A DNA stretch of 64,000 nucleotides from an uncultured Nitrososphaeria archaeon (GCA_964637915.1 CAZWXN010000001.1:4152-68151); one strand, 5' to 3'. Positions 2,411 through 49,879 are shown, counted from the stretch's first letter. Notes: generated by a model not told the origin, from the sequence alone. A program made the numbers and translations.

Positions 2411-3153
2411 TAACCTGATAGCAAATATGGGTGGCCGGCTTTTAAGTCGAATCCCCAGTCTGGTGTTGGCGCTGGAACGCTTAGTCCGAAGAAGCTTAAA
2501 GCTGCCTCGGTTAGAACAACGTCCGCCACGCTTAGGGTGAAGACTACAGTGATTATTGAAATCACATTTGGGAAAATATATCTCGCGAGAATCGTCATAT
2601 GATTGGCTCCTATAGCCCTAGCTGCCTCAACATATAGTTGCTCCTTTATACTTAACGTCTGACCTCTCACCATCCTAAAATATGTAGGAACGTAAACAAT
2701 TGCAATCGCTATTGCCGTGTTGATGATCCCGGGCCCCAACGCCGCCGCCATAGCTATCGCTAGAATCAAGCTAGGGAACGCATAGATAGCATCCATAATC
2801 ATGCTTAGGATCCTATCTAGTAAGCCGCCGACATAACCTGAGATTAAGCCGAGTGGAACTCCCATTAGCATCGAGATCGCTGTCGAAAGTAAGACTACTA
2901 TAAGGATCGTTCTAGCACCATATACTATCCTACTCCACATATCTTGTCCTATCTTGTTTGTCCCAAGAGGATGTTCCCAGCATGGCGGCTGGAAGCCCGG
3001 ACCCACAGTTCTCGTGGGGTCGTAGGGTGTTAAGAGTGGAGCAAATATTGCGAGAAATACTACGAACATTACCATGCCCACGCCAACCCATCCTAAGGTA
3101 CTCAACTTGACTTTGGGGACAAGCTTCACGAGAATTGGCCGAAACGTGTACAT
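2299..3153 (-). CDS. Peptide ABC transporter permease (OppC/DppC-like)
   Basis: Multi-TM protein with BPD_transp_1 EAA-like loop (EAARAIGAN). Confidence 0.8.
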   Translation of the reverse strand: MYTFRPILVKLVPKVKLSTLGWVGVGMVMFVVFLAIFAPLLTPYDPTRTVGPGFQPPCWEHPLGTNKIGQDMWSRIVYGARTILIVVLLSTAISMLMGVPLGLISGYVGGLLDRILSMIMDAIYAFPSLILAIAMAAALGPGIINTAIAIAIVYVPTYFRMVRGQTLSIKEQLYVEAARAIGANHMTILARYIFPNVISIITVVFTLSVADVVLTEAALSFFGLSVPAPTPDWGFDLKAGHPYLLSGYWWLITFPGLMIMILAVGFTFIGESVAGYFQAREVRA

Positions 3154-3164
3154 AGCATCACCTC

Positions 3165-9301: not shown

Positions 9302-10618
9302 ATGAGCGCTATAGAGGTTCTTGAGAGGCAGCCTCTCAGGAGGTTCCACTATGCCCTTCTAGCGATCACGAGCCTTGTTTACGGCCTGACGGCGATGAAT
9401 GTCATGATTATCTCTGTCGCTCTCCCGCGCATAAGCGCTGAGTGGTCTCTCAGTCCGCCGGCTGCCGGGCTTCTCGCGAGCTTCGGCTATATCGGGATGT
9501 TCTTGGGCGCTCTCTCAAGCGGCTTCATAGCGGATAGGATTGGGAGAAAGCCCACGATGATAATAATGATCCTGATAGGGTCAGTATTCACGGGGCTCTG
9601 CGGCCTCGCCCCGGGCTATGAGATCATGGCGGCTTTTAGGCTGATAGCGGGCTTCGGGCTCGGGGGAACACTACCACTCCCAGGAGTCTACATGAGCGAG
9701 TATCCGCCGGCCAAGTATAGGGGCAGATTCGTCGGCATCGTTGAGACCGCATGGGTCTATGGAGCGATATTATCCGTCCTCTTCGGCTACATCCTGATAC
9801 CGGAATATGGCTGGAGAGCCGCATTCAATGCCGCCTACATACCATTGATCCTCATACCATTCATAGCCCTCCAAGTCCCCGAGTCGATAAGATTTCTTGA
9901 GAGGAGGGGCCGGATAGAGGAGGTCAAGAGCATATTCAGGAGATATGGGCTCGTCGAGGATGTTGAGGGGCTTGATTTAAGACCGCAGCCAACCCAGAGA
10001 ATCGGGGTCAGGAGGCTGATCTCAGGCGAGTATCTGAGGAGGACGTTGATACTCTGGATGCTCTGGGCCGCCCTCGTATACACATATCACGGGATATTCA
10101 TCTGGTTACCATCAATCTATGCTGAGAGGCTTGGCTTCTCCATCGTAAAGTCCCTCGAATGGGTCCTGATCGTCACCTTGGTGCAGGTTCCCGGCTACTA
10201 TAGCGCCGCTCTGCTCCTAGATAAGGTTGGCAGAAAGCCCATCCTAGCCTTCTATCTAGCTGTCGCCGGCGTCGCATCCCTCCTCCTCTCAACAACCCGC
10301 GACATCAACATGATCCTCATCTATAGCTCTGTGATAAGCTTCTTCAACCTCGGTGCTTGGGCCGGGCTCTATGCCTACACGCCGGAGCTCTATCCGACAG
10401 AGCTTAGGGGGACTGGATCCGGGGCTGCCGCGAGCATCGGTAGAGTCGCGGGCATACTGGCCCCATATCTCACCGGATACCTAATGTATATCAGTGGTGG
10501 AGAGCTCTTCTACGCCTTCCTAGTATTCGCGCTGGTTCATCTCGTGACCGCTGTCGTAACAGGCGCCTTCGGCGAGGAGACTAAGGGCAGGAGGCTTGAG
10601 GAGATCTCGAGGATCTAG
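9302..10618 (+). CDS. MFS transporter
   Basis: 12-TM organisation, MFS motif GFIADRIGRKP / DKVGRKP between TM2-3 and TM8-9. Confidence 0.7.
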   Translation: MSAIEVLERQPLRRFHYALLAITSLVYGLTAMNVMIISVALPRISAEWSLSPPAAGLLASFGYIGMFLGALSSGFIADRIGRKPTMIIMILIGSVFTGLCGLAPGYEIMAAFRLIAGFGLGGTLPLPGVYMSEYPPAKYRGRFVGIVETAWVYGAILSVLFGYILIPEYGWRAAFNAAYIPLILIPFIALQVPESIRFLERRGRIEEVKSIFRRYGLVEDVEGLDLRPQPTQRIGVRRLISGEYLRRTLILWMLWAALVYTYHGIFIWLPSIYAERLGFSIVKSLEWVLIVTLVQVPGYYSAALLLDKVGRKPILAFYLAVAGVASLLLSTTRDINMILIYSSVISFFNLGAWAGLYAYTPELYPTELRGTGSGAAASIGRVAGILAPYLTGYLMYISGGELFYAFLVFALVHLVTAVVTGAFGEETKGRRLEEISRI

Positions 10619-15272: not shown

Positions 15273-16376
15273 TTATAGGTATCCCTCGGCCTCGGCGAGC
15301 TCAGCATTTAGCACCGCGTTTCCAGCAGCCCCCCTGATCGTATTATGGCCCAAGACGAGGAACTTTATCCCATTTCTTAGAACCGGGTCTCTCCTAATCC
15401 TGCCGACGACCACCGACATACCATTGCCAGCATACCTGTCCAGCCTCGGCTGAGGCCTATCCGGCTCACTCCTCACGATTATCGGCCTCTCCGGCGCGGT
15501 CGGCAGCCTTAGCTCCTGCGGCCTCCCCCTAAACCTCCTCATAGTCTCTGCAACCTCCTCAGGCTCAGCCGGCTTATCCAGCTCGACGAAAACCGCCTCG
15601 AGATGCCCCTCGAGAACATTAACTCTATGGCAGCTCGCGGAGATCTTGAAATCCGCGGGAATGATTCTTGAGCCCTCCAGCTTGCCTAGGATCTTCAATG
15701 CCTCCCGCTCAACCTTCTCCTCCTCATTTCTTATGTATGGTATGATGTTGTCCGTTATCGCCATAGAGGGCACCCCGGTCCAGCCTGCGCCCGAGAGAGC
15801 CTGCATCGTTGAGACTATCACGCTCCTTATGCCATACTCATCCATGAGCGGCTTCAAGGCTATTATCATGGCATTCGACGTGCAGTTTGGACTCGTGACT
15901 ATGAAAGATCTCCAGCCCCTCTTCCCCTGCTCCCTGACAAGGCTCAGGTGATCGGGATTAACCTCGCCTATCAGGATCGGTACATCCGGCTCCATCCTAT
16001 AGGCGCTTGCATCGCTTATCACGGGGATCCCCTCCCTCGCGAACTCGGCCTCAACCTCTCTAGCCACCTCCGATGGAAGCGCTGAGAATACTAGATCCAC
16101 ATTCCCCTCATGCTTAACATCCTCGAGCCGCGCCTCAACAACACGCATCCCCGCCGCCCGCTCCGGAACCTCGCCCTCAATACACCAGTGAACAACCTCA
16201 GCATACCTCTTCCCCGCGGATCTCGATGAAGCGGCTAAAACCTCAAGATCAAACCTCGGATGATCGGAAAGCAGCTTGACAAATCTCTGACCAACCATCC
16301 CCGTAGCACCGAGCACAGCAACCCTCAGCTTATCCATACGCACTCCACCCCAACCCCCATGCACCAAAACAGCCAT
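15273..16376 (-). CDS. asd: Aspartate-semialdehyde dehydrogenase
   Basis: VAVLGATGMVGQ NAD(P) site, catalytic SNCTSN region, C-terminal GAAG; first gene of a threonine/aspartate-family cluster. Confidence 0.85.
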   Translation of the reverse strand: MAVLVHGGWGGVRMDKLRVAVLGATGMVGQRFVKLLSDHPRFDLEVLAASSRSAGKRYAEVVHWCIEGEVPERAAGMRVVEARLEDVKHEGNVDLVFSALPSEVAREVEAEFAREGIPVISDASAYRMEPDVPILIGEVNPDHLSLVREQGKRGWRSFIVTSPNCTSNAMIIALKPLMDEYGIRSVIVSTMQALSGAGWTGVPSMAITDNIIPYIRNEEEKVEREALKILGKLEGSRIIPADFKISASCHRVNVLEGHLEAVFVELDKPAEPEEVAETMRRFRGRPQELRLPTAPERPIIVRSEPDRPQPRLDRYAGNGMSVVVGRIRRDPVLRNGIKFLVLGHNTIRGAAGNAVLNAELAEAEGYL

Positions 16377-16385
16377 GAATTAAAA

Positions 16386-18097
16386 CTTTTGACCACTTGT
16401 AAAGTCTCTCTGAAAAATGCTCAAAGATGTTCAATCATCCTATGCCTATCCTCAATCTCCATCATCCCGGCTAACGCGCAGGAAGAGAGGTTCGAGTGGG
16501 GTAGCCAGATGCCCATGACAGGCCCTCAGAAGACTCTGGCTCTCATGGTTGAGTTCTCTGACGTGATGTTTAGCATTTCTCGAAGGGCTGAGCAGGTCAT
16601 GAGAATGCTCGGCGACTTCATTGAGAGAAGCTCATATGGGAAGGCTTGGCTCGATTATTACATCTACCCGAAGGTGATAACTCTGCCCAAGCCCATGAGC
16701 TACTATGGGGCGCCAGAGCCCGAGAGCCAGAGAGGAGATGGCAGGGGGTCGTACGAGTACCTGCTAGCAATTATCGAGTTCGTCAAGAGAAAGTCGGGGC
16801 TTAACATAACGGAGTTTAAGCATATAGTCATAATTCATGCGGGGAGCGATGAGGCAATCAGCAACTCCCCCAACGACCTATGAAGCCTTTGCGCCTGTGG
16901 TATCAACAAGCTCCTTTACTTCTTAATAGAAAGGTATGGATTCGACGAGGTTGAGGGCTACCTGCTTGAGAATGTCTATGACCATATAGTTAACCTATTC
17001 ATGCATAGGAGGAAGGATGGGACAGGTCATCTGCTCAATGGCATACTAACAGTCGCGGAAGATGACATACCCTCTGTAATGATATATGAATTCACTCATA
17101 GCCTGTGGATCAGCGACCTATACGTATATGCCGAGGATGGCTATAGTACTGGATCCGAGGTCGGTGTCTGGTCGAACATGGATTACGGCCCCCTTCCTAG
17201 AGCCGCCAGTACACATAGATGGCTGGTCAAAGTACCTGCTCGGCTGGATTGAGACCACGGAAGTGAGGGGATGACGGGTACACGATCCATACACTGGATA
17301 AGGCGGAGGAGCCTCATGCGCTGATAATCCCGATAAACGACGAGGAGTACTACTTCATGCACGCTATGAGGCCCATGGGCCAAGATGCGGCGCTACCCGG
17401 CCCTAGAATCCTCGTCTTCAGAATCAACAAGTACCTGAGCAGGAATGTGGAGGGACACCCATTCATGTGTAAGATGTCAGATGCCCATCCCGATACGCCG
17501 CCGGAATGCTCATCAATGGACAAAGAGAGGATCAGGCTATGTGAAGGTCTTGACGCGCCCTATATAGATCCTGAAGGCTATAGAGGAACTTGGGGAAGAT
17601 TCGAGATAAATCTCATCAAAGGTGAGCTTGAGACCGAGGAGGGCTATTACATCAAAGTCCTAAATTTTGATAAGAAGAGGGGCGTCGCCAAGATACTCGT
17701 GAGCATTGGCGGAGCGGCTCCCGAGAAGACCACTATCGAAATGAAGACCACTGAGAAAGAGACGGCTGCTACTGATGCTACCCAGATATTGACAAAGATA
17801 ACCACTCAGACCATAACTATCACAAGCAAGGAAACGGTTACACGCGCTCAGATGAAGACCACAACGGTCGTGGAGACCGTCGTGAAGGAGGAGCTGGGCA
17901 TCTTAAGCTACGGGCTAATTGCCATAAGCATAGTGCTGGCTCTAGCGCTTGTAATAGTCACGAGCAGGAAAAGAGCCCACCGCCACCTCCGCCCCAGTCC
18001 ACCCCTCATAGTAGGAGACAATCATGAGGTCGAGCCGGGAGACATGTACACGGCTAACAGCCCTCCTTCTATCCTTCATTATCACCCTCTCGATTAG
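16386..18097 (+). pseudogene. Disrupted M6 (immune inhibitor A-like) surface metalloprotease gene with C-terminal TM anchor
   Basis: M6-like segments (LALMVEFSD, IVIIHAGSDE, MIYEFTHSLWISDLY, KYLLGWI, EEYYF) lie in three different reading frames. They are separated by an in-frame TGA at 16881-16883 and at least two frameshifts (about 17150-17270 and about 17265-17357). The HExxH motif is degenerate (YEFTH). A Thr-rich stalk plus TM anchor follows at the C-terminus. Confidence 0.5.
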
Positions 18098-18250
18098 CGA
18101 GAATGTTATGGCTCAGGACGACCCTCTACATCTCAAGTTCTCCGCCGACGAAACTTGATCATGAAGAGAAGAAAAGAATTCGAGAGATGCGTCCTCCCAA
18201 ATACTTATAAGAAAGTCTCTGGGCCAATCAGATGAGGTGCAGTCATAGTT

Positions 18251-18676
18251 TTGGGTATGATTCCTCGTGGTAAGCTTATTGGAATGCAGGTATACAACCC
18301 GAATGGAACATTTGTTGGAACTGTCCAGGATATTGCTCTGCCGCTTGGAGAGGGTGAGATGGGCATAGTCGTGACGACGAGAACGCAGACAATGGAGACA
18401 ATACCATGGAGCAAGATCTCTGCCGTGGGAGACATCATAATCCTCAAGGAGAACATCGAGATTAAGGCTCCGCCTGTGGAGATGGCCACGCAGCAGGCAT
18501 TCCCATCACCCCAAGCACCATCAGCGGAGAGCAAGGCTGGAGGAGCCTTGAAATCCATCACCGGAGTCTTTAAGAGGGGTGGGGAGAGGCCCGCCTGCCC
18601 AACATGCGGCAAGCCATTAGCGTACATCGAGCAGTATAAGAGATGGTACTGCTATAACTGCGGCAAATATGTCTAG
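18251..18676 (+). CDS. PRC-barrel domain protein with C-terminal zinc ribbon
   Basis: N-terminal PRC-barrel-like pattern (LIGMQVYNPNGTFVGTVQDIAL), Pro/Ala-rich linker, C-terminal CPTCG...CYNCG. Confidence 0.6.
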   Translation: MGMIPRGKLIGMQVYNPNGTFVGTVQDIALPLGEGEMGIVVTTRTQTMETIPWSKISAVGDIIILKENIEIKAPPVEMATQQAFPSPQAPSAESKAGGALKSITGVFKRGGERPACPTCGKPLAYIEQYKRWYCYNCGKYV

Positions 18677-18687
18677 CATGCACATAA

Positions 18688-18699
18688 TTCTTTTTTCTT
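18688..18699. terminator. Oligo-T tract between convergent genes (archaeal terminator-like)
   Basis: ttcttttttctt immediately after the PRC-barrel gene stop and downstream of the convergent aspartate kinase. Confidence 0.3.
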
Positions 18700-18738
18700 G
18701 AGACGCTTAGCTGAGCTGGTAATATCTTGTATTTTTGA

Positions 18739-20133
18739 TTAGTGTATTGTGTTTAGGCCGAATGCTCTGTGTACCGCTCTTAGCGCCTTGACACCATCCT
18801 CTTCTTTGACTGCGAAGGAGATGTTAAGCTCTGATGATCCCTGTGCTATCATCTTTATATTTATGCCCTCTGAGGCGACCGCGTTGAAAATTTTCGCAGC
18901 TACCCCGGGCTTTCCCCTCATCCCGGATCCTATGACCGCTATCACGCATATCCCCTCCTCATAGTCTATCCTTATCTCGTCCTCGGTGAACTCGCTCTTT
19001 ATCGCCTTTAACGCCTTTTTCAGGTCCTCTCTCGGTAGGGCTATCGAGATGTTTGCCTGCGATGATGCCTGTGAGACCATTATCACTTGGGCGCCTATCC
19101 TCGCGAGGAGGTCTAGGAGCTTGACATTAGTGTCCATGGCCTCTGATGAGCCGATCCCACTTGCGAGGATTATCGCCGCATCCCTTATCATCGTTAAAGC
19201 CTTGACGGTATCGGACTCAGCCACCCCACTTATCAGCGTTCCCTCAGCGGATGGATTATAGAAGTTCTTCACCCTTATCGGGATATTCTCCTTGGAGGCT
19301 GGCTCGAGCGCTCCCGGGTGGATGACCTTCGCGCCGAAGTACGCTAGCTCAAGAACCTCATCATAGGACATTCGCGGTATCGGTTTCGCCTCCGGTACGA
19401 GCTTGGGATCCGCGGTCATCACGCCATCAACATCCTTCCAGAGGATTATCTCGTTAACCTTAAGCGCCGCACCTATTATTGTCGCGGTATAGTCGGATCC
19501 GCCCCTCCCCAAGGTCGTAATTACGCCATCAGGGGTCGAGGCTATGAACCCTGTCACCACCGGGACTATCCCCTTCTCCAAGAGGGGGCCAAGCCTCCTC
19601 CTAACCTCCTGATATGTTATCCCCAGCGGCTTAGCGGATCCAAACTCGTCATTCGTGATTATGCCCGCATCCCATCCAGTGAGATACTCCGCCTTGACGC
19701 ACTGATCGACAAGCGAGCCCCAGAAGATCCTTGTCGAGAGCCTCTCGCCGAATGATAGGGCATAGTCCTTGATCCTCGGCGTAACCTCCTTTAGATATGC
19801 AGTTATTGAGAGGAGTTTCCCGAGCTCCTCGATCTCCTGCTCAAGCTTCTCCCAGACATTTCTTCTTAGATCCTCTTTTCCTATCGCCTCTATGCAGGCA
19901 TTCTCATGCCTCGCCCTAAGGCTCTCGATGAAGCTGCGCACCTCGTCCTCGCGCCCCTTCTCAGCGCTCCCAAGCGCTCCGAGTATCCCATCCGTTACAC
20001 CACTGAGCGCGGATACAACTGCGACGACGCGGCACCCGCGCTCGACATAATCCCTGACTATCTCGGCGGACCTCCTCACAGTAGACCCATCCTTGACACA
20101 GCTTCCGCCGAACTTCATCACGTAGCTGGCCAT
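18739..20133 (-). CDS. Aspartate kinase
   Basis: 464 aa; KFGGS N-terminus, amino-acid kinase fold, two C-terminal ACT domains. Confidence 0.85.
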   Translation of the reverse strand: MASYVMKFGGSCVKDGSTVRRSAEIVRDYVERGCRVVAVVSALSGVTDGILGALGSAEKGREDEVRSFIESLRARHENACIEAIGKEDLRRNVWEKLEQEIEELGKLLSITAYLKEVTPRIKDYALSFGERLSTRIFWGSLVDQCVKAEYLTGWDAGIITNDEFGSAKPLGITYQEVRRRLGPLLEKGIVPVVTGFIASTPDGVITTLGRGGSDYTATIIGAALKVNEIILWKDVDGVMTADPKLVPEAKPIPRMSYDEVLELAYFGAKVIHPGALEPASKENIPIRVKNFYNPSAEGTLISGVAESDTVKALTMIRDAAIILASGIGSSEAMDTNVKLLDLLARIGAQVIMVSQASSQANISIALPREDLKKALKAIKSEFTEDEIRIDYEEGICVIAVIGSGMRGKPGVAAKIFNAVASEGINIKMIAQGSSELNISFAVKEEDGVKALRAVHRAFGLNTIH

Positions 20134-20745: not shown

Positions 20746-21737
20746 AGAGAATCATGTTAAGATGCATCATAGTTGGATACGGTTTCCTCGGGAAGAGGCT
20801 CGCCAAGCTAATAGCTTCTGGAGCTGTTAGGGGTGTTAAGCTCGTTGGGATAGCATCCTCCAAGGGATACATCTACAAGGAGGATGGATTTCTGCCGAGC
20901 GATCTCCCGGATGACCTGCGATCCTCCAGCATGCTGAGACCCGCGCCTGCATCAGAACTCATTGATAAGAGAATTGCTGATCTTCTGGTAGAGCTTACTC
21001 CGACAAATATTAGGGATGGCGAACCGGGGCTGAGCCATATCAAGCTCGCACTTGAACAGGGCATGGATGTCGTAACGGCGAATAAGGGGCCTATAGCCCT
21101 AGCATATGAGGAGCTGATGGGGCTCGCCGAGGAGAGGGGCGCGATGCTCCTGCATGAGGCCACTGTCGGCGGCGGGATACCGCTCATCTCCCTCAAGAAC
21201 CGCTGCCTAGCAGCCGACGAGCTCCTATCAATCAAGGGGATACTGAACGGGACTACCAACTATATCCTCAGCAGGATGCACTTCGAGGAAATGACCCTCG
21301 ATCTCGCGCTAAGGGAGGCTCAGATGCTCGGAATAGCCGAGAGAGACCCCACGCTCGACTTGGAGGGCGTGGACACAGCATTGAAGCTCGTCATACTCGC
21401 GAACAGCCTGATGAACATGGGGAAGAGGCTGAGCGACGTGAAGATCAAAGGGATAACCGGGATAACGAGCGAGGCCATCGCGGCGGCGAAGGAGTCCGGA
21501 ATGACGATAAAGCTCATCGGGATCGCTGATGAGGATGGCCTCAGGGTAGCGCCCAAACTCGTAAGGCTGAATGACCCGATATGTGTTCATGGAACCCTGA
21601 ATGCCGTCAGCTTCAATTTCAGGATCCTCGGGAGGCTCACGATAATCGGGGAAGGCGCTGGCGAGTCAACAGTCTCAGCCCTCATAAACGATATCCACGA
21701 GGTTATGAAGACTAGGATGCGGTCAAATAGGATTTAA
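20739..21737 (+). CDS. Homoserine dehydrogenase
   Basis: Rossmann N-terminus, catalytic-domain motifs (GGGIPLI, GILNGTTNYIL), 332 aa. Confidence 0.85.
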   Translation: MVKRIMLRCIIVGYGFLGKRLAKLIASGAVRGVKLVGIASSKGYIYKEDGFLPSDLPDDLRSSSMLRPAPASELIDKRIADLLVELTPTNIRDGEPGLSHIKLALEQGMDVVTANKGPIALAYEELMGLAEERGAMLLHEATVGGGIPLISLKNRCLAADELLSIKGILNGTTNYILSRMHFEEMTLDLALREAQMLGIAERDPTLDLEGVDTALKLVILANSLMNMGKRLSDVKIKGITGITSEAIAAAKESGMTIKLIGIADEDGLRVAPKLVRLNDPICVHGTLNAVSFNFRILGRLTIIGEGAGESTVSALINDIHEVMKTRMRSNRI

Positions 21738-22679: not shown

Positions 22680-22840
22680 TCCACCTTTATCCCATGCTTC
22701 TCCAAGGCCTTCTTTATCTTCTCGATCTCCGATCTAAGCCGAATCAGCTCACCCACAATCATCTCAAGATCTGATGGTAGAGTATAGCCCAGCCTCCTGG
22801 CATCCCTCAACCTATTAAGTGGATCCTCTGGCAAAACCAT
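22676..22840 (-). CDS. Possible 54-aa small protein (MVLPEDPLNRLRDARRLGYTLPSDLEMIVGELIRLRSEIEKIKKALEKHGIKVD)
   Basis: Own translation of the minus strand; not in the ORF track (under 60 aa). Stop overlaps the PfkB stop codon region. No recognisable family. Confidence 0.2.
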   Translation of the reverse strand: MVLPEDPLNRLRDARRLGYTLPSDLEMIVGELIRLRSEIEKIKKALEKHGIKVD

Positions 22841-23042
22841 TACCGCATCCCAGGAGAAGTATGCATAGCTTCCTTAAAACAGTAGCTGGCCTCCTATGAT
22901 AGGATATTAAGCTGCATTAATTCTTATGGAAGGCGCTTGGATCGTCTGATGCCGCAATTGCCCTCCCCCACCATGGACAATAGCTTCTGACGGTCTCTAG
23001 CCAATAATCGAGCTCGCTTTCAACAAAGCTGGGGGCGCCATC

Positions 23043-23387
23043 TCAGAGCTCGATGCTGACCCCAACTATCCTCACTGTCTCGGGCTTCAGGTGCCAGCTC
23101 CAAGGCTTGTTGAAGCCGCTATCCTCGCGGGCCAGCACCCCCATCAGGAACAGGCTATTCTTCCCCTCCATGTTCTCGAGGGCAAGCCTAATGGTCTCTG
23201 GATCGGTGACATAGATTACGAAGCGCTCACCATTCACATCCACTAGGAAGTATTTTCCATGAGGCTTCATGTATGGAGTTATGAAAAGTGTGGCCGCTAT
23301 GACCACGAGCAAGATGATGGTTAGCCGCCTACGAGGCTGTATAGCATTTCTTGGTCCCAGCCGCATATATGACTTCCCATTCATCAC
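23043..23387 (-). CDS. Hypothetical membrane-anchored protein
   Basis: 114 aa, single N-terminal TM helix, no recognisable domain. Confidence 0.35.
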   Translation of the reverse strand: MMNGKSYMRLGPRNAIQPRRRLTIILLVVIAATLFITPYMKPHGKYFLVDVNGERFVIYVTDPETIRLALENMEGKNSLFLMGVLAREDSGFNKPWSWHLKPETVRIVGVSIEL

Positions 23388-23487
23388 GAGTCAAGCAGCC
23401 GGAGCCTAGGCCACGTTTACGAGCTAGTGATCTCGGGGCAAGATTATTAAACACCACGATCTAAGGCGTGGTTTCGAGAAGAAAGAC

Positions 23488-27136: not shown

Positions 27137-27730
27137 TTGAGCGGCCTTCTCGACCCCCTGCTTGAGTGGGCTAGGCTTCATCTCGTCCCACTGGGGATTC
27201 CGGGACTGGCTTTAACAGCCTTCACGGAGTCCAGCTTCTTCCCAATACCGCCCGACGTTATCCTTATCCCGCTTGCCCTCCTAGATCCCGGAAACGCTGT
27301 GCTCTACGGCCTCGTGGCCACGGTCAGCTCGACGGCTGGAGCCCTTCTTGGCTATTGGATCGGCCTTAAGGGCGGGAGGCCCATACTCCTTAAGCTGGCT
27401 GGCGAGAAGTCCATGAAGAAGGCCGAGGAGTTCTTCAACAGGTATGGCGCCTGGGCTGTTGGGATAGCTGCCTTCACGCCGATACCCTACAAGGTCTTCA
27501 CGATAGCCTCTGGAGTATTCATGCTTAGGAACTTGAAGGCCTTCATCCTCGCATCAATTCTGGGGAGGGGTGGGAGGTTCATGGCTGAGGCGGTGCTCAT
27601 AATGCTCTTCGGCGAGGGGATATTGTCGTTTCTCAGCGCGCACTTCGAGCTCATAACAATCCTAGTTGGCGCGGCCGTGATATCATTTCTAGCGGTCTAT
27701 AGCCTCCTCAGGAAGAGGTCACGCCCCTGA
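27137..27730 (+). CDS. DedA/YqaA-like small membrane protein
   Basis: 197 aa, 4-5 TM helices; the first loop motif resembles the SNARE-associated/DedA family; tentative. Confidence 0.45.
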   Translation: MSGLLDPLLEWARLHLVPLGIPGLALTAFTESSFFPIPPDVILIPLALLDPGNAVLYGLVATVSSTAGALLGYWIGLKGGRPILLKLAGEKSMKKAEEFFNRYGAWAVGIAAFTPIPYKVFTIASGVFMLRNLKAFILASILGRGGRFMAEAVLIMLFGEGILSFLSAHFELITILVGAAVISFLAVYSLLRKRSRP

Positions 27731-29753: not shown

Positions 29754-29885
29754 GCATAATCTTCCCCCTTCTGATTGCTGTGTATCATCTTTTAAGGATT
29801 GAACTTAAGTATAATCTTCCTCAGAGGGATGCCTAGAACCATAGTTCTCACGTAGTCCAATATTTCGCTCATCGTCCGACTAACC

Positions 29886-30071
29886 TCATACTTCTCTTAT
29901 TACTTCTCTATTGCTTCTCCAAGTAACCAAGTAATTTAACTTGTAAGGATCATAATTTCTTATTTTATTAAGCTCGTCGCCCGGCAACTTCCTAACCATC
30001 ATCAGAAGTTTCTTCTCGGAAGGACCAATCGCGCTAATGCTCTCCAAGCGAGCCTCCTGCGTGCCTCTCAA
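29886..30071 (-). CDS. Possible small protein (61 aa) within a 677-bp AT-rich intergenic island
   Basis: ORF only; no detectable family; region of reduced GC. Confidence 0.2.
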   Translation of the reverse strand: MRGTQEARLESISAIGPSEKKLLMMVRKLPGDELNKIRNYDPYKLNYLVTWRSNREVIREV

Positions 30072-30430
30072 AACTCTTACTCTAAACCCAAATAAGACTA
30101 GGGGGATGATATAATTACAGGCTAAGACGATAAGATACCGTATAGTAGCCTTCGCGGCAAACCTTTACATGAGAACAAAAACATGCGAATCTCCCAACTG
30201 AGATTTCCAAAATTATTAATCTGCCAATAAGGAAATCACATTACGCAGGTTACACCTGATAACCTTAAAAGCACTCAGATAACATATCTCATGATTAATG
30301 AAGCCGCTGGCCAGCGGGTAGTAAAAGCCATAAAGTCCGGTAGAGTTGGCGGAAGCTACCACCATGGAGGATTTATGAATCCATTGATAGTTTTAATGCT
30401 TGCCTCGCCGGCCTTTATGGCTACGAGGAC

Positions 30431-43147: not shown

Positions 43148-43200
43148 AAATCCCCAACCCTATCTCCCAAAATCATCCATCTTTAATTAGGAGAGTTTCT

Positions 43201-43551
43201 TCAGACGAGCATCATTCGCATAGGCCTAAGTTCCCGCTTAAATGGATCTAGAATAAGCCCGAGAATCTCTAGCGTTACTACACCTAGAACAGGCTGATCA
43301 CCCTCCTCCCCCAATACTACTGGAGTATGCCCCTCGCCCTGCGGCAAAATAATATAACACTCCGAGACCCTCCTCCTTATCCTCGTCCCATCCGCAAGTA
43401 TAAATTCATGCTCTCGAATGGGTTTAAGCCCTATCTTCCTCCAGACATTACTGGGAAGAACAGTATATGTGGCTCCGCTATCAATGAGGAAAGAGAGTTT
43501 TTCCTCTCCCGCTGGTCCTCTAACGATCCCCTCAACGTGTACTAGGCCCAA
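43201..43551 (-). CDS. Retropepsin-like (clan AA) aspartic protease
   Basis: 116 aa; catalytic FLIDSGATYTVLP motif and C-terminal VLGEE...LEILGLILD hydrophobic dimerisation pattern typical of single-domain DTG/DSG proteases. Confidence 0.6.
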   Translation of the reverse strand: MGLVHVEGIVRGPAGEEKLSFLIDSGATYTVLPSNVWRKIGLKPIREHEFILADGTRIRRRVSECYIILPQGEGHTPVVLGEEGDQPVLGVVTLEILGLILDPFKRELRPMRMMLV

Positions 43552-43593
43552 AGTTTCTCGAAGACTCTTTTTGGAGTTAGGGGTATTAAAGCG

Positions 43594-43953
43594 TTACTTG
43601 AGTGGGACGTACATGCTTGATCTTGTCGCTCCCACTCCGGCTTTTCCATGCTTTACCTGCTTGCATGTTATCGCGAATTCTCCTAGCCTATGCCCTATCA
43701 TCTCGGGCTTTATCTCAACCGGGACGAATTCCTTCCCGTTGTAAACGTGTATTGTTAGGCCGACCATCTCAGGCAGGATCACCATATCCCTCGCATGCGT
43801 CTTGATGGGCTTCTTCGGCTTCTCACCCCTCTTCAGCATCTCATTCGCCTCTCTCACCTTCTCGAGAAGCCTTAGCTGGACGTGGTTTAGGCCACGCATA
43901 AGGCTCCTCCTCATCCTGCTCGGCAGTAGCTTTATGAACTGATCCATGCTCAT
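43594..43953 (-). CDS. Ribosomal protein uS19 (S19p/S15e)
   Basis: [13 protein letters not shown]...[23 protein letters not shown] signature. Confidence 0.85.
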
Positions 43954-44191
43954 CTGCCTAAGCTCATCCAGCGTGTATCCCCTGTAGGTGAATTCTCGCC
44001 TCGATATAAGGCCTCACCCCCCTCTTTATCAGCCAACATGTTAATAAAGATAATGGGGGTCTGCTGAGACACCCATGTCCATCAACCTATCTCTCAGAAC
44101 GTCTTTCTACATGCTTCGCGTATCACTTGAGCAATCCGGCCATTCACTATGACTGCGTAGCCCCCAGTCCTCCCCTCAAGCTTCCTACGGC

Positions 44192-45222: not shown

Positions 45223-46383
45223 TCACGTGCTTAGGATTTTTACAAGCCTGCTTGCAAGAATTACTGCTATGGCCGGGTAAATGCATAAGCTCGCGAATGC
45301 CGTGGAGAGTGGTATCGCGTTGAGTAGCAGGGCTATGATGATGGGGCCGAAGAGGTTTCCAACATCCCACGATGTCAGGTATATCGAGTTACCTAGTATC
45401 CTGAGGTTCGGCCTTACGACATGGGCTGTTATCGCCGCGGTTAATGGAAATGTGAGACCATGCGCCATCGCGACGAGGTAGAGCCCGATTATGAAGAACG
45501 ACGTACTGGGTGCCAGGCCGGCGATCAGCGCACCTATGGCGCAAGAAGCCATAGAAACCTCGAGAAACCTGACAATATTGATCCGGCCCACGTATCTCGA
45601 TAATATTGTCCGGGTTATGTATGTGATTAGGTAGTAGCCGGTGAATATTGCTAGGATGAGGTGATCCGGGATCCCAAGCTCTATGCTTGCCTTCAACGGC
45701 CCATATGCGAAAACCCCTCCAATAGTTATCGAGTAGAGGAGGTATAAGAGTGTTGGAAGGAGGAGCGGCTCCCTGAGAACATCCTTGATCATGGATGAGG
45801 TTATCTTTGAGTAGTATGATTCCTCCCAGAGCGGCGGCCTAGTCTTTGCAAATGCCGCGCCGAGGAGGACTGCGATCAAGCTGATTAACGAGGCGGAGGC
45901 CATAAGCAGCCTCAGGTCCATTAGATAGCTAAGGGCCACGCCGATTGCCGGCCCGGTCCAAAGGCCGAGAGCAACATAGGCCGTGTAATTCGCGACCGAC
46001 TTCCGAGCCTCCTCCGGCGCCATTATCAGGCTTGCGAGCGAGAGAGTTAAGGTGTAGTTCAGGGCGAATGTGACTCCCTGGAGCACTCTGAAGATCCCCA
46101 GCATCCATGGTGTCGTGCTGATCGCGTAGCCGAGCAGGGCCACGGTGTTCAGCGTTATCCCGAGGACGAGTATCCTCAGCGCATTCCTCCTGACCGCGAG
46201 CATCGACGCGGGTATCCTGCTGAGCGCAGAGGCCACCGCCGTCAAGGATACCAGTATTCCCACCTCACTCTCTGACGCCCCCAGAACCGAGTATATGTAG
46301 ACGGGCAAGATCGGGCCGATAATCTCGTATGAGAGGGTAAGTGTGAACGTTGTGTAATTGAGGAGCCTTTGATACCGTCTCAT
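45223..46383 (-). CDS. MFS transporter
   Basis: 12 TM segments, MFS-like loops. Confidence 0.65.
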   Translation of the reverse strand: MRRYQRLLNYTTFTLTLSYEIIGPILPVYIYSVLGASESEVGILVSLTAVASALSRIPASMLAVRRNALRILVLGITLNTVALLGYAISTTPWMLGIFRVLQGVTFALNYTLTLSLASLIMAPEEARKSVANYTAYVALGLWTGPAIGVALSYLMDLRLLMASASLISLIAVLLGAAFAKTRPPLWEESYYSKITSSMIKDVLREPLLLPTLLYLLYSITIGGVFAYGPLKASIELGIPDHLILAIFTGYYLITYITRTILSRYVGRINIVRFLEVSMASCAIGALIAGLAPSTSFFIIGLYLVAMAHGLTFPLTAAITAHVVRPNLRILGNSIYLTSWDVGNLFGPIIIALLLNAIPLSTAFASLCIYPAIAVILASRLVKILST

Positions 46384-46448
46384 AATAGGTCGGGAATGAT
46401 ATCCTCAATATCCCCGATAATAAATCTTGAAGAATGGAGAATTGGGCG

Positions 46449-49035: not shown

Positions 49036-49879
49036 TCTAGGCTTCTAGCTCATAAGAGCCCATATTTAAGGCATGACTCTCACATATCAATATATCATCA
49101 AAAAATCACATGCATTAGAAGCTGTCCAACTCTGGTAAGGGAAATCCTAAATTGGGGACTAGGGAAAAAGGGTCTCACTATCATCCTTTTTCTTTCTTCC
49201 TTCATCTCTTCTCCCATTGGGGGTCTCTGGAATCATATGTCTCCATCTTGCCCTTAGCCATGTATATTCTTCTCCTCTCCTTTAGAGTAGAGTCTATCCC
49301 GCCAGCCTTTCTGAGAGAAATTCTCCTACACGCTTCTATCCTCTCCACCCCCAATACCCTTATCCATACCGTAATTGATCTCGTATCGCTCCTCATCCTA
49401 GCTCATGCCGCCGAAGACCTTATCCTCCTCGATAAACTTCTTCTTGAACCTCTTCCATTAACCTTGATTCTGAATGCTGAAGCTAGCATCCCTATGATGA
49501 ACTAGAAGTCCCTATTTTTGGAATGATCCTCAACGAATGAAGGATGGCCCATGTCGGGGATGTGGTTGTCTGGGGTTCTAGCTAGGTGTCTGTCCTCGAG
49601 AATCTTGACGGGATAGATGATTTCGCCAAGACATTTGGAAGATGTGTTGGGAAATCAGCGATAAGGGCGTTATACAGTGAGCCCAAGGATCTGATGAGGT
49701 GATTGATAAATTCTTCCTGCAACACGTTATCTTGACGCTTGGGTAGAGGCGTGCCCTCCGACTATTATACTAAACTAAGAAGAATGCAAACGCAATGATA
49801 AGCTATGCTCTAGCGATCATTAAGTGGTTTGAAGATTCCTGGAGCTCGCTCCAGGAAGGGAGCAACGTATAGCTAGGGT

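What the first reader, a model, noticed from the sequence alone, without database searches (positions are those of the whole stretch)
16386..18097. Decayed gene for a surface-anchored M6 (InhA-like) metalloprotease inside the aspartate-family cluster
Four consecutive + strand ORFs (16260-16883, 17001-17252, 17086-17274, 17357-18097) together carry the ordered hallmarks of an M6 peptidase (LALMVEFSD, IVIIHAGSDE, the HExxH region, KYLLGWI, EEYYF). A signal peptide and a Thr-rich stalk with a C-terminal TM anchor flank them. The reading frame is interrupted by an in-frame TGA (16881-16883) and at least two frameshifts, and the zinc motif reads YEFTH instead of HEFxH. This is a pseudogene, or an assembly-error cluster, sitting between asd and aspartate kinase. 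It records loss of an extracellular protease in this lineage.
Basis: seen in the sequence. Interest (0 to 1): 0.55.

Follow-up and report, generated by a model that had tools for sequence, protein, structure and literature searches.

The report
Decayed surface metalloprotease gene relic
This is a dead remnant of a membrane-anchored, M6-like (InhA-like) extracellular metalloprotease gene in a hot-spring archaeon of the genus Wolframiiraptor; it is an ordinary pseudogene, caught midway through the loss of a small surface-protein gene cassette.

Summary
Window 16438-18014 (+) is the relic of a ~546-aa M6-like metalloprotease that is intact in relatives (best hit 78% identity, E=4e-276). Compared with the intact orthologue it carries:
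- TGG->TGA at a near-invariant Trp (16881-16883)
- His->Tyr at the first zinc ligand (HEFTH->YEFTH, 17085-17087)
- four frameshifting indels, not two (17189-17193, ~17267-17270, ~17976, ~17992)
- a 5' deletion that removed the upstream DUF350 gene, the promoter region, the start codon and about 22 codons
- a 3' deletion that removed two downstream cassette genes

It is not an assembly error. Four independently assembled contigs from four datasets share every lesion and differ from the window only by 1-2 SNPs. The 11-14 kb of flanking sequence compared shows no other broken gene. TGA is a normal stop codon here (18 of 55 long ORFs).

The same site between asd and the PRC-barrel gene is:
- intact in some W. 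allenii contigs
- empty in the W. allenii and W. gerlachensis MAGs
- broken by an independent TAA in the closest relative

The pseudogene reading is supported. It is a routine case of gene loss, with modest interest because the cassette has been lost more than once in this genus.

The parts
15273..16337 (-). asd (aspartate-semialdehyde dehydrogenase), intact left flank. The 354-aa form is the one called in sister contigs. The 367-aa ORF that runs to 16376 is just the longest ORF.
   Evidence: Pfam Semialdhyde_dh; 88.5% nt identity to L001
16338..16437 (.). Remainder of the asd-upstream intergenic region, ending at the 5' deletion junction (~16433-16437). Relative to L001, about 680 bp are missing: the rest of the intergenic/promoter region, the whole DUF350 gene, and the first ~67 nt of the M6 ORF including its ATG.
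   Evidence: blastn breakpoints at window 16389|16438 = L001 7344|8068. Junction alignments. No DUF350 hit by tblastn in the window.
16438..18014 (+). Relic of the M6-like metalloprotease gene: truncated signal peptide, catalytic domain, beta-rich C-terminal domain, Thr-rich stalk, TM anchor and poly-Pro tail. It is readable only by switching frames 0 -> 1 -> 2 -> 1 -> 0.
   Evidence: DNA alignment to L001 8068-9641; tblastn in three frames; protein alignment A1; TIGR03296 E=1.9e-15
16881..16883 (+). Nonsense mutation TGG->TGA at the near-invariant Trp of the DIWSH/DLWSF motif
   Evidence: Identical in L007-L010.
17085..17087 (+). TAT (Tyr) replaces CAC/CAT (His), the first zinc ligand of HEFTHSxWIxD. 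All 16 aligned homologues have His.
17189..17193 (+). Frameshift 1: a 1-nt insertion in a C run (C5 here; L011 has CCCC and L001 has CCCG)
   Evidence: shared by L007-L010
17266..17270 (+). Frameshift 2: a 2-nt deletion at or next to a G4 run. It creates the frame-1 stop at 17272-17274.
   Evidence: shared by L007-L010
17975..17996 (+). Frameshifts 3 and 4: two net 1-nt losses in C runs (~17976-17978 and ~17992-17995). They destroy the conserved RRRxPPPPPP cytoplasmic tail in the current reading frame.
   Evidence: Frame 1 reads SPPPPPPQ and frame 0 reads PVHPS**.
18009..18014 (+). TAGTAG: the penultimate Trp codon mutated to TAG, followed by the ancestral TAG stop (L001 has TGGTAG)
18024..18118 (+). 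Stub (about 32 codons, the signal-peptide region) of the next cassette gene, which encodes 461 aa in L001. The ORF runs on to 18158 into junction sequence.
   Evidence: blastn colinearity with L001 9651-9751; ORF 18024-18158
18119..18164 (+). 3' deletion junction plus the last codons and stop of the 395-aa cassette gene (GAAACTTGATCATGA here, GAAACTCGATCGTGA in L001). About 2.46 kb are missing relative to L001.
18251..18676 (+). PRC-barrel / zinc-ribbon protein gene, intact. It is the last gene of the conserved neighbourhood and is retained in every Wolframiiraptor locus examined that reaches this position.
   Evidence: (90.8% aa identity to L001)
18739..20133 (-). Aspartate kinase, intact right flank

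Best explanation
Window 16438-18014 is a unitary pseudogene. It is the non-functional relic of a type-I membrane-anchored extracellular zinc metalloprotease of a divergent M6 (immune inhibitor A-like) family that is conserved in Caldarchaeales.

In the ancestor the gene sat in a cassette, DUF350 - M6 - 461-aa secreted/anchored protein - 395-aa polytopic membrane protein - PRC-barrel protein. In the genus Wolframiiraptor this cassette lies between asd and aspartate kinase.

In the window's lineage the cassette was disabled and is being eroded:
- A 5' deletion removed DUF350, the promoter region and the protease start codon.
- A 3' deletion removed the two downstream genes.
- The remaining protease body accumulated one nonsense mutation, four frameshifting indels (three in or beside C or G runs, one beside a short C run), a zinc-ligand His->Tyr change and further substitutions at otherwise invariant positions.

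No full-length or catalytically competent protease can be made from it.

What is shown: the lesions, their reproducibility, the synteny and the family assignment. What is inferred: that the direction of change is loss rather than gain, that the relic is not expressed, and that the intact protein is an active extracellular protease.
For: Family and homology
- The stitched translation hits 98 homologues. Intact ~540-aa proteins occur in Caldarchaeales; P0001 is 78% identical at E=3.8e-276.
- TIGR03296 (M6 domain) covers the whole profile, E=1.9e-15 for the relic and 1e-22 to 3e-27 for intact members.
- The AF2 model of P0001 has its best PDB hits in B. anthracis InhA2, 4YU5/4YU6, E~2e-12, probability 1.0.

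Lesions mapped by DNA alignment to intact orthologues L001 and L011
- TGG->TGA
- CAY->TAT at the first His of HEFTH
- +1, -2, -1 and -1 indels, summing to -3, so the ancestral stop is back in the starting frame
- 5' and 3' deletions

The lesions are real, not errors
- L007 and L008 (two JGI metagenomes) and L009 and L010 (two Logan SRA assemblies) show 0 gaps against the window over 16200-18300 and differ from it at 1-2 SNP sites each. All lesions are identical.
- Flanking genes have the same lengths as their orthologues.
- TGA ends 18 of 55 long ORFs in the window.

Relaxed constraint
- The window differs at 10 of 95 columns that are invariant in 16 homologues. Comparably close relatives differ at 0-3.
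- Window-branch nonsynonymous:synonymous codon changes are 23:25, against 12:36 on the L011 branch (Fisher p=0.033).

Synteny and direction of change
- L001-L006 carry the intact cassette between asd and PRC.
- W. gerlachensis (L034) and a W. allenii MAG (L038) have asd directly next to PRC.
- The DUF350...M6-g461-g395-PRC neighbourhood recurs in other Caldarchaeales genera and partly in Bathyarchaeia, so presence of the cassette is ancestral.
Against: - Expression was not tested, so a truncated product from one of the fragments cannot be formally excluded.
- Overall nucleotide divergence of the relic from L001 (83.3% over the catalytic part) is no greater than that of the largely intact L011 copy (83.8%). 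Decay shows only in the N:S ratio and the disabling lesions, which points to a fairly recent inactivation.
- The N:S contrast is only p~0.03.
- The four confirming contigs are 99.9% identical strains. They may come from related samples, so they show that the lesions are reproducible, not that they are old.
- Only 64 kb of the genome is visible, so an intact paralogue elsewhere cannot be excluded.
Confidence: 0.93

Rival explanations
1. Sequencing or assembly error: the gene is intact in the organism, and the stop and frameshifts are artefacts, for example homopolymer miscalls.
For: Three of the four indels lie in or beside C or G homopolymer runs of four or five bases, and the fourth (~17976) beside a run of three. 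That is the typical context for homopolymer errors.
Against: - Four independently assembled contigs from four datasets (two JGI, two Logan) carry all lesions with zero gap differences. They differ from the window by SNPs, so they are not copies of one assembly.
- Two lesions are substitutions (TGG->TGA and CAY->TAT).
- The 5' and 3' deletions, of several hundred bases and 2.46 kb, are not miscalls.
- No indels break any flanking gene across the 11-14 kb compared.
Confidence: 0.02
2. Programmed recoding: a functional protease is made by TGA read-through (or selenocysteine/Trp insertion) plus programmed ribosomal frameshifts.
For: The pieces are colinear. The first two shifts both move the reading frame the same way (frame 0 to 1 to 2).
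Against: - It would need one read-through and four frameshifts of different sign (+1, -2, -1, -1).
- The start codon and signal-peptide n-region are deleted.
- The first zinc ligand is Tyr.
- Intact orthologues need no recoding.
- TGA is a common stop in the window, ending 18 of 55 long ORFs.
- Seven further invariant residues are substituted or deleted.
Confidence: 0.01
3. Exapted fragment: one surviving ORF is still expressed for a non-catalytic role. The main candidate is 17357-18097 (246 aa: C-terminal beta-domain, Thr-rich stalk and TM helix).
For: - The 246-aa ORF is called as a gene in NCBI, JGI and Logan records.
- All 5 SNP sites seen among the sister contigs fall upstream of it, between 16397 and 17277.
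- Catalytically dead M6-like proteins are a recognised class (NCBIfam NF052323).
Against: - The SNP skew is not significant (about p=0.06 with 5 sites), and another population has a substitution inside the ORF (P0137).
- The fragment lacks a signal peptide, so its normally extracellular domain would not be exported.
- Its conserved poly-Pro tail is frameshifted.
- The closest named relative, W. gerlachensis, deleted the whole segment.
Confidence: 0.04

Closest known systems
Immune inhibitor A (InhA1/InhA2, MEROPS family M6) of Bacillus thuringiensis and B. anthracis; solved as 4YU5/4YU6
   Same: - The intact orthologues share the M6 domain profile (TIGR03296 over its full length).
- They carry the HEXXHXXxXXD zinc site, read here as HEFTHSxWIxD (the M6 consensus HEXXHXXGXXD is from my own knowledge).
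- InhA2 is the best structural match, E~2e-12 and TMq 0.44-0.49.
- Both are secreted or extracellular proteins.
   Different: - Sequence identity is only about 12%.
- Scores fall below the curated TIGR03296 cutoff (57-96 bits against 110.8).
- The PDB sequence-profile search found nothing.
- The archaeal proteins are shorter (~540 aa) and are tethered by a Thr-rich stalk, a C-terminal TM helix and a poly-Pro tail.
- Trp replaces the consensus Gly in the motif.
- The window copy is a pseudogene with Tyr at the first His.
Caldarchaeales 'M6 family metalloprotease-like protein' (for example CSUB_C0075 of Ca. Caldarchaeum subterraneum = P0018, and P0001 from W. allenii-type contigs)
   Same: - These are the direct orthologue family, at 52-78% identity with the same domain order.
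- P0001 sits at the identical syntenic position between asd and the PRC gene.
   Different: Those genes are intact single ORFs with HEFTH and a full signal peptide. The window copy has a nonsense mutation, four frameshifts, His->Tyr and terminal deletions.
T9SS-dependent M6-like inactivated metalloprotease (NCBIfam NF052323)
   Same: An M6-like domain that has lost catalytic residues. There is weak local similarity, E=2.4e-5.
   Different: That family consists of intact, about 1000-aa bacterial proteins kept for a non-catalytic role. Here the reading frame itself is destroyed. The score is 22.5 bits against a cutoff of 600, so it is not a member.
Prokaryotic unitary pseudogenes and gene loss by deletion bias
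   Same: - Disabling point lesions and flanking deletions.
- A raised N:S ratio.
- An intact copy in some relatives and a clean deletion in others.
This is the textbook path from inactivation to erosion to removal (general knowledge).
   Different: Nothing essential. What stands out is that four states are sampled at one locus within one genus: intact, single nonsense, multi-lesion relic and empty site.

Membership tests
Peptidase family M6 (InhA-like), judged on the ancestral/intact gene | Significant match to the M6 catalytic-domain profile across its full length | tested here: inconclusive
   TIGR03296 results: relic E=1.9e-15 (57.5 bits), P0001 8.5e-22 (78.4), P0012 3.1e-27 (96.2). Each covers about positions 2-285 of 286, but all fall below the curated cutoff of 110.8 bits. 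Pfam PF05547 passes its cutoff only in some members (P0012 27.7 against 22; P0001 14.3) and only around the zinc motif.
Peptidase family M6 (InhA-like), judged on the ancestral/intact gene | Zinc-binding motif HEXXH with a downstream Asp as third ligand (HEXXHXXGXXD) | tested here: met
   All 16 aligned homologues read HE[FL]THSxxxxD, with E, the second H and D invariant; the consensus Gly is replaced by Trp in 15 of 16. The M6 consensus itself is from my own knowledge of MEROPS.
Peptidase family M6 (InhA-like), judged on the ancestral/intact gene | InhA-like three-dimensional fold | tested here: met
   AF2 model of P0001: mean pLDDT 68.6, with the catalytic core mostly 80-95. The top four Foldseek PDB hits are all InhA2, 4YU5/4YU6, at E=1.8e-12 to 3.8e-11 and probability 1.0. 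The next protease hits are metzincins (fragilysin, ADAM) at E>0.02.
Peptidase family M6 (InhA-like), judged on the ancestral/intact gene | Demonstrated metalloprotease activity | not testable with these tools
   I found no biochemical data for any archaeal member. The main text of the Wolframiiraptor paper does not contain the words protease or peptidase.
Functional M6 protease, judged on the window copy itself | One uninterrupted ORF with a start codon, a signal peptide and an intact HEXXH | tested here: not met
   TGA at 16881-16883, four frameshifts, YEFTH in place of HEFTH, and the start codon and n-region deleted.
Pseudogene (unitary, decaying) | Disabling lesions relative to intact orthologues at the syntenic position | tested here: met
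   DNA alignments to L001 and L011; synteny with L001-L006.
Pseudogene (unitary, decaying) | Lesions are real and reproducible in independent data | tested here: met
   L007-L010, from four datasets, show identical lesions, 0 gaps and 1-2 SNPs each. Raw reads were not inspected.
Pseudogene (unitary, decaying) | Relaxed purifying selection | tested here: met
   N:S is 23:25 on the window branch against 12:36 for L011 (p=0.033). The window changes 10 of 95 invariant columns, against 0-3 in close relatives. The effect is modest, and overall divergence is not elevated.
Pseudogene (unitary, decaying) | No functional transcript or protein | not testable with these tools
   No expression data are available. 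Loss of the native promoter is inferred from the 5' deletion.

The most novel reading that the evidence does not exclude
The surface-protein cassette DUF350 - M6 protease - g461 - g395 may be a dispensable, surface-exposed module that selection removes repeatedly in Wolframiiraptor, rather than one that simply drifts away. Possible drivers are that it serves as a virus receptor or target, or that this sugar-fermenting lineage does not need it.

Four different states of the same locus occur within one genus:
- an intact cassette and an empty site, both in W. allenii genomes whose flanks are 99% identical
- an independent TAA nonsense mutation in L011
- the multi-lesion relic in the window
- an empty site in W. 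gerlachensis

The clean empty sites might arise by recombination between the short promoter-like repeats ACATCCTCCT(G/A)AA that flank the cassette.
Probability: 0.15. Interest if true: 0.45.

Novelty: new member of a known kind. Interest (0 to 1): 0.2.

Why it matters
- For annotation: the four ORFs here should not be called as genes. At least two of them (the 246-aa and 83-aa fragments) are already in public protein collections as separate hypothetical proteins. They should be merged into one pseudogene.
- For physiology: this Wolframiiraptor population lacks the membrane-anchored M6-like protease at this locus, a protease most Caldarchaeales keep. That bears on predictions that these archaea degrade extracellular peptides.
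- For evolution: the locus gives a small, clean series of gene-loss stages within one genus (intact, single nonsense, eroded relic, empty site). It also points to a conserved but uncharacterised archaeal surface module, DUF350 / PrsW-like / M6 / two unknown proteins / PRC-barrel.

None of this is surprising in kind.

Tried and rejected
- Pfam on the stitched relic gave no M6 hit, only a sub-threshold DUF5305 match. NCBIfam was needed.
- The exact-sequence look-up of the 367-aa asd ORF failed, probably because the annotated start differs (354 aa). I switched to other window proteins.
- The genome-contig scan with the family alignment returned 22 loci in Caldarchaeales and Bathyarchaeia, but none titled Wolframiiraptor and none more than 66% identical to P0001. 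That fits absence of the gene from those representative genomes, but the search is pattern-based and the genomes are MAGs, so I treat it only as weak support.
- The PDB sequence-profile search found nothing. Only the fold search linked the family to InhA2.
- I first read the lower nucleotide identity of the relic (80.5%, against 86-88.5% in the flanks) as accelerated decay. I rejected this because the mostly intact L011 copy is just as diverged from L001 (83.8% against 83.3%). The gene is simply fast-evolving.
- Window 16393-16437 has no significant similarity to the deleted L001 segment in a shuffle test (score 17, shuffled mean 17.2). By eye it partly aligns with the asd-upstream intergenic region of relatives.
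- The 13-nt direct repeat flanking the cassette is one of 17 similar-sized repeat families in 5 kb. It is a lead, not evidence.
- All SNPs among sister contigs fall upstream of the 246-aa ORF, but the skew is not significant with 5 sites.
- The main text of the Wolframiiraptor paper has no mention of proteases, pseudogenes, the species epithets or the sample accessions.
- Rfam and tRNA scans found nothing in or near the locus. The only hit is tRNA-Ala at 34662.

Full report
**1. What is in the sequence**

ORF listing and three-frame translation of window 16380-18110 confirm the four + strand ORFs and the ordered motifs LALMVEFSD, IVIIHAGSDE, YEFTH, KYLLGWI and EEYYF. The reading runs as follows:
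- frame 0 to a TGA at 16881-16883, then on in frame 0 to about 17195
- frame 1 to a TGA at 17272-17274
- frame 2 to the TAG at 18095-18097

A stitched 568-aa translation matches the NCBIfam M6 domain model TIGR03296 over positions 15-280 of 286 (E=1.9e-15, 57.5 bits, below the curated 110.8). Pfam found nothing relevant. A search of the 5.8-billion-protein collection gave 98 hits. The top ones are intact ~540-aa proteins from Caldarchaeales (Ca. Caldarchaeum and relatives), many labelled 'M6 family metalloprotease-like'. The best, P0001, is 78% identical at E=3.8e-276.

**2. The lesions**

In the protein alignment (A1), all 16 homologues read HE[FL]THS where the window reads YEFTHS, and the TGA sits on a near-invariant Trp (DIWSH, or DLWSF in the closest relatives). 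The homologues also end in RRRxPPPPPPP plus a few residues. The window reads that tail out of frame.

DNA alignment to the intact orthologous locus L001 and to the closest relative L011 pins down each change:

| Lesion | Window position |
|---|---|
| TGG->TGA | 16881-16883 |
| CAC/CAT->TAT (His->Tyr, first zinc ligand) | 17085-17087 |
| +1 nt in a C run | 17189-17193 |
| -2 nt at a G run | ~17267-17270 |
| net -1 nt in a C run of the poly-Pro region | ~17976-17978 |
| net -1 nt in a C run of the poly-Pro region | ~17992-17995 |
| TGG->TAG at the penultimate codon, then the ancestral TAG stop | 18009-18011, 18012-18014 |

The indels sum to -3, which puts the ancestral stop back in the starting frame. 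This is an internal consistency check on the reconstruction.

tblastn of the L001 protein onto the window covers residues 23-275, 273-300 and 301-539 in three frames. It finds no second copy in the 64 kb.

**3. The ends of the gene and its neighbours**

In L001 the order is asd (-), DUF350 (+), M6 (+), a 461-aa gene (+), a 395-aa gene (+), a PRC-barrel gene (+), a VTT-domain gene (+), aspartate kinase (-), an ACT protein and homoserine dehydrogenase. blastn colinearity shows that the window lacks three segments:
- L001 ~7345/7386-8067: the promoter region, DUF350 and the first ~22 codons of M6 including the ATG
- L001 9751-12210: nearly all of the 461-aa and 395-aa genes
- the VTT gene

What remains is a 32-codon stub of the 461-aa gene (18024-18118) and the last codons and stop of the 395-aa gene (18150-18164). 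The relic has no native start codon and, by inference, no native promoter.

**4. Real mutation or artefact?**

Exact-sequence look-ups show that the 246-aa and 83-aa fragments exist verbatim in other public records. Four independent contigs carry the locus: JGI 3300022546, JGI 3300025068, Logan SRR5468562 and Logan SRR5468564. All four align to window 16200-18300 with zero gaps and 1-2 mismatches each, and every lesion is identical. Because they differ from the window and from each other at SNP sites, they are separate assemblies of closely related strains, not copies of one assembly.

Across 11-14 kb of flanks no other gene is broken relative to the window. Gene lengths equal those of the orthologues, apart from minor differences in the called start codon (for example pyruvate kinase, 480 aa here and 489 aa in L001). 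TGA terminates 18 of the 55 long ORFs in the window, so it is an ordinary stop. The assembly-error and recoding alternatives are therefore rejected.

**5. Signs of relaxed constraint**

The window differs at 10 of the 95 columns that are invariant in the 16 homologues: G112E, D139N, W165*, H233Y, D275H, R326M, G339R, T470I, one deleted Thr, and one Pro of the tail. Leave-one-out values for comparably close relatives are 0-3.

With L001 as outgroup, window-specific codon changes are 23 nonsynonymous to 25 synonymous, against 12:36 on the L011 branch (Fisher p=0.033). Total divergence is not elevated: window-L001 is 83.3% and L011-L001 is 83.8%. Inactivation therefore occupies only the later part of the branch, very roughly a quarter by my own estimate from these ratios.

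**6. Organism and the state of the locus in relatives**

Cluster names for flanking proteins point to Ca. Wolframiiraptor (Caldarchaeales, formerly Aigarchaeota).

| Comparison | Flank nt identity |
|---|---|
| window vs W. gerlachensis GCA_021323375.2 (L034) | 93.5-95% |
| window vs W. allenii GCA_023539495.1 (L038) | ~87% |
| window vs L001 | ~87% |
| L001 vs L038 | 99% (same species) |

At the asd-PRC site:
- L001-L006 carry the intact cassette.
- L038 and L034 have an empty site, with asd directly beside PRC and 150-190 bp between them.
- L011 keeps DUF350, but its M6 gene has an independent in-frame TAA at codon 382.
- The window has the eroded relic.

The neighbourhood DUF350 ... M6 - g461 - g395 - PRC recurs in several other Caldarchaeales genera, and DUF350 plus M6 also occur together in Bathyarchaeia. 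In some of those genera a gene I judge PrsW-like by eye and a Thr-rich anchored protein are inserted as well. Presence of the cassette next to PRC is therefore ancestral, and the empty or broken states are losses. This is parsimony, not a formal reconstruction.

**7. What the intact protein is**

The domain order is signal peptide, catalytic domain with HEFTHSxWIxD, a beta-rich domain, a disordered Thr-rich stalk, one TM helix and a poly-Pro cytoplasmic tail.
- TIGR03296 matches the full length at E=1e-22 to 3e-27, below the curated cutoff.
- PF05547 matches only the zinc-site region and passes in some members.
- A PDB profile search by sequence found nothing.
- The AF2 model has B. anthracis InhA2 (4YU5/4YU6) as its four best Foldseek hits (E~2e-12, probability 1.0, TMq 0.44-0.49), followed at E>0.02 by metzincins.

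I therefore call it a divergent M6-like (InhA-like) membrane-anchored metalloprotease. Activity is inferred, not shown.

**8. Verdict**

The refinements are more lesions than reported, a truncated 5' end, co-deleted neighbours, and the corrected extent 16438-18014. The mechanism is ordinary gene inactivation followed by deletional erosion.

Novelty is low: this is a new instance of a known kind. The mildly interesting aspects are the series of loss stages within one genus, the presence/absence polymorphism of the cassette between W. allenii genomes whose flanks are 99% identical, and the existence of a conserved, uncharacterised archaeal surface module around this protease. Interest 0.2.

Noticed in passing
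L011 1764-1766 (ENA ERZ27245612 k141_6440): The closest relative of the relic still has DUF350 upstream, but its M6 gene carries its own in-frame TAA (TCA->TAA at codon 382). The frame stays open and homologous after it. This is a second, independent inactivation of the same gene. The truncated 381-aa product is recorded from two contigs.
   Followed up: partly
L001 7295-12300 vs L038 2990-3140 (W. allenii); L034 7791-7981 (W. gerlachensis): L001 and L038 are 99% identical in the flanks, yet L001 carries the whole 4.9-kb DUF350-M6-g461-g395 cassette and L038 lacks it. The short intergenic sequence at the empty site is much more diverged than the flanks. That hints at an old presence/absence polymorphism or at allele exchange by recombination.
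   Followed up: partly
L001 7411-7423 and 12251-12263: A 13-nt direct repeat, ACATCCTCCT(G/A)AA, lies just upstream of DUF350 and again just upstream of the PRC gene, so it brackets the cassette. It could be a shared promoter/5'UTR element and a substrate for clean excision. It is not statistically exceptional: 17 repeat families of similar size occur in the same 5 kb.
   Followed up: partly
L012 4512-11905 and loci L013-L033: A conserved neighbourhood occurs across Caldarchaeales: DUF350, a 299-aa polytopic protein that I judge PrsW-like by eye, a 345-aa Thr-rich anchored protein, the M6-like protease, g461, g395 and a PRC-barrel/zinc-ribbon protein. DUF350 next to M6 also occurs in Bathyarchaeia. 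g461 and g395 have no Pfam or NCBIfam match. This is an uncharacterised surface module.
   Followed up: partly
window 18677-18738 (compare L001 13027-13650, L002 6131-6685): W. allenii has a VTT-domain (DedA-like) membrane protein gene between the PRC gene and aspartate kinase. It is absent from the window and from W. gerlachensis, and in L002 that position is called as two ORFs (118 and 57 aa), which may be a split copy. A 197-aa ORF at window 27137-27730 may be a paralogue, judging from the VTT-domain gene at the colinear position in L034.
   Followed up: no
L008 ~9633-9822 (corresponds to window ~20989-21084): One sister contig (JGI 3300025068) appears to have a ~96-bp tandem duplication inside homoserine dehydrogenase. 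The gene is called there as two ORFs (117 and 224 aa). The window copy is intact.
   Followed up: no
window 2411-3164, 22680-23487, 29754-30430, 43148-44191, 45371-46448, 49036-49879: These stretches of 0.7-1.1 kb have no ORF of at least 120 aa, in an otherwise densely coding window. At least one (22680-23487) holds small genes in W. gerlachensis (54 aa and a BP74_N protein). The others were not examined and could hold small genes or further relics. Rfam found no RNA family there.
   Followed up: no
window 16260-16883, 17001-17252 and 17357-18097: The 246-aa and 83-aa pseudogene fragments are deposited as separate hypothetical proteins in public protein collections (NCBI/JGI/Logan, and JGI/GEM). 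These are annotation artefacts that inflate the count of orphan protein families.
   Followed up: yes
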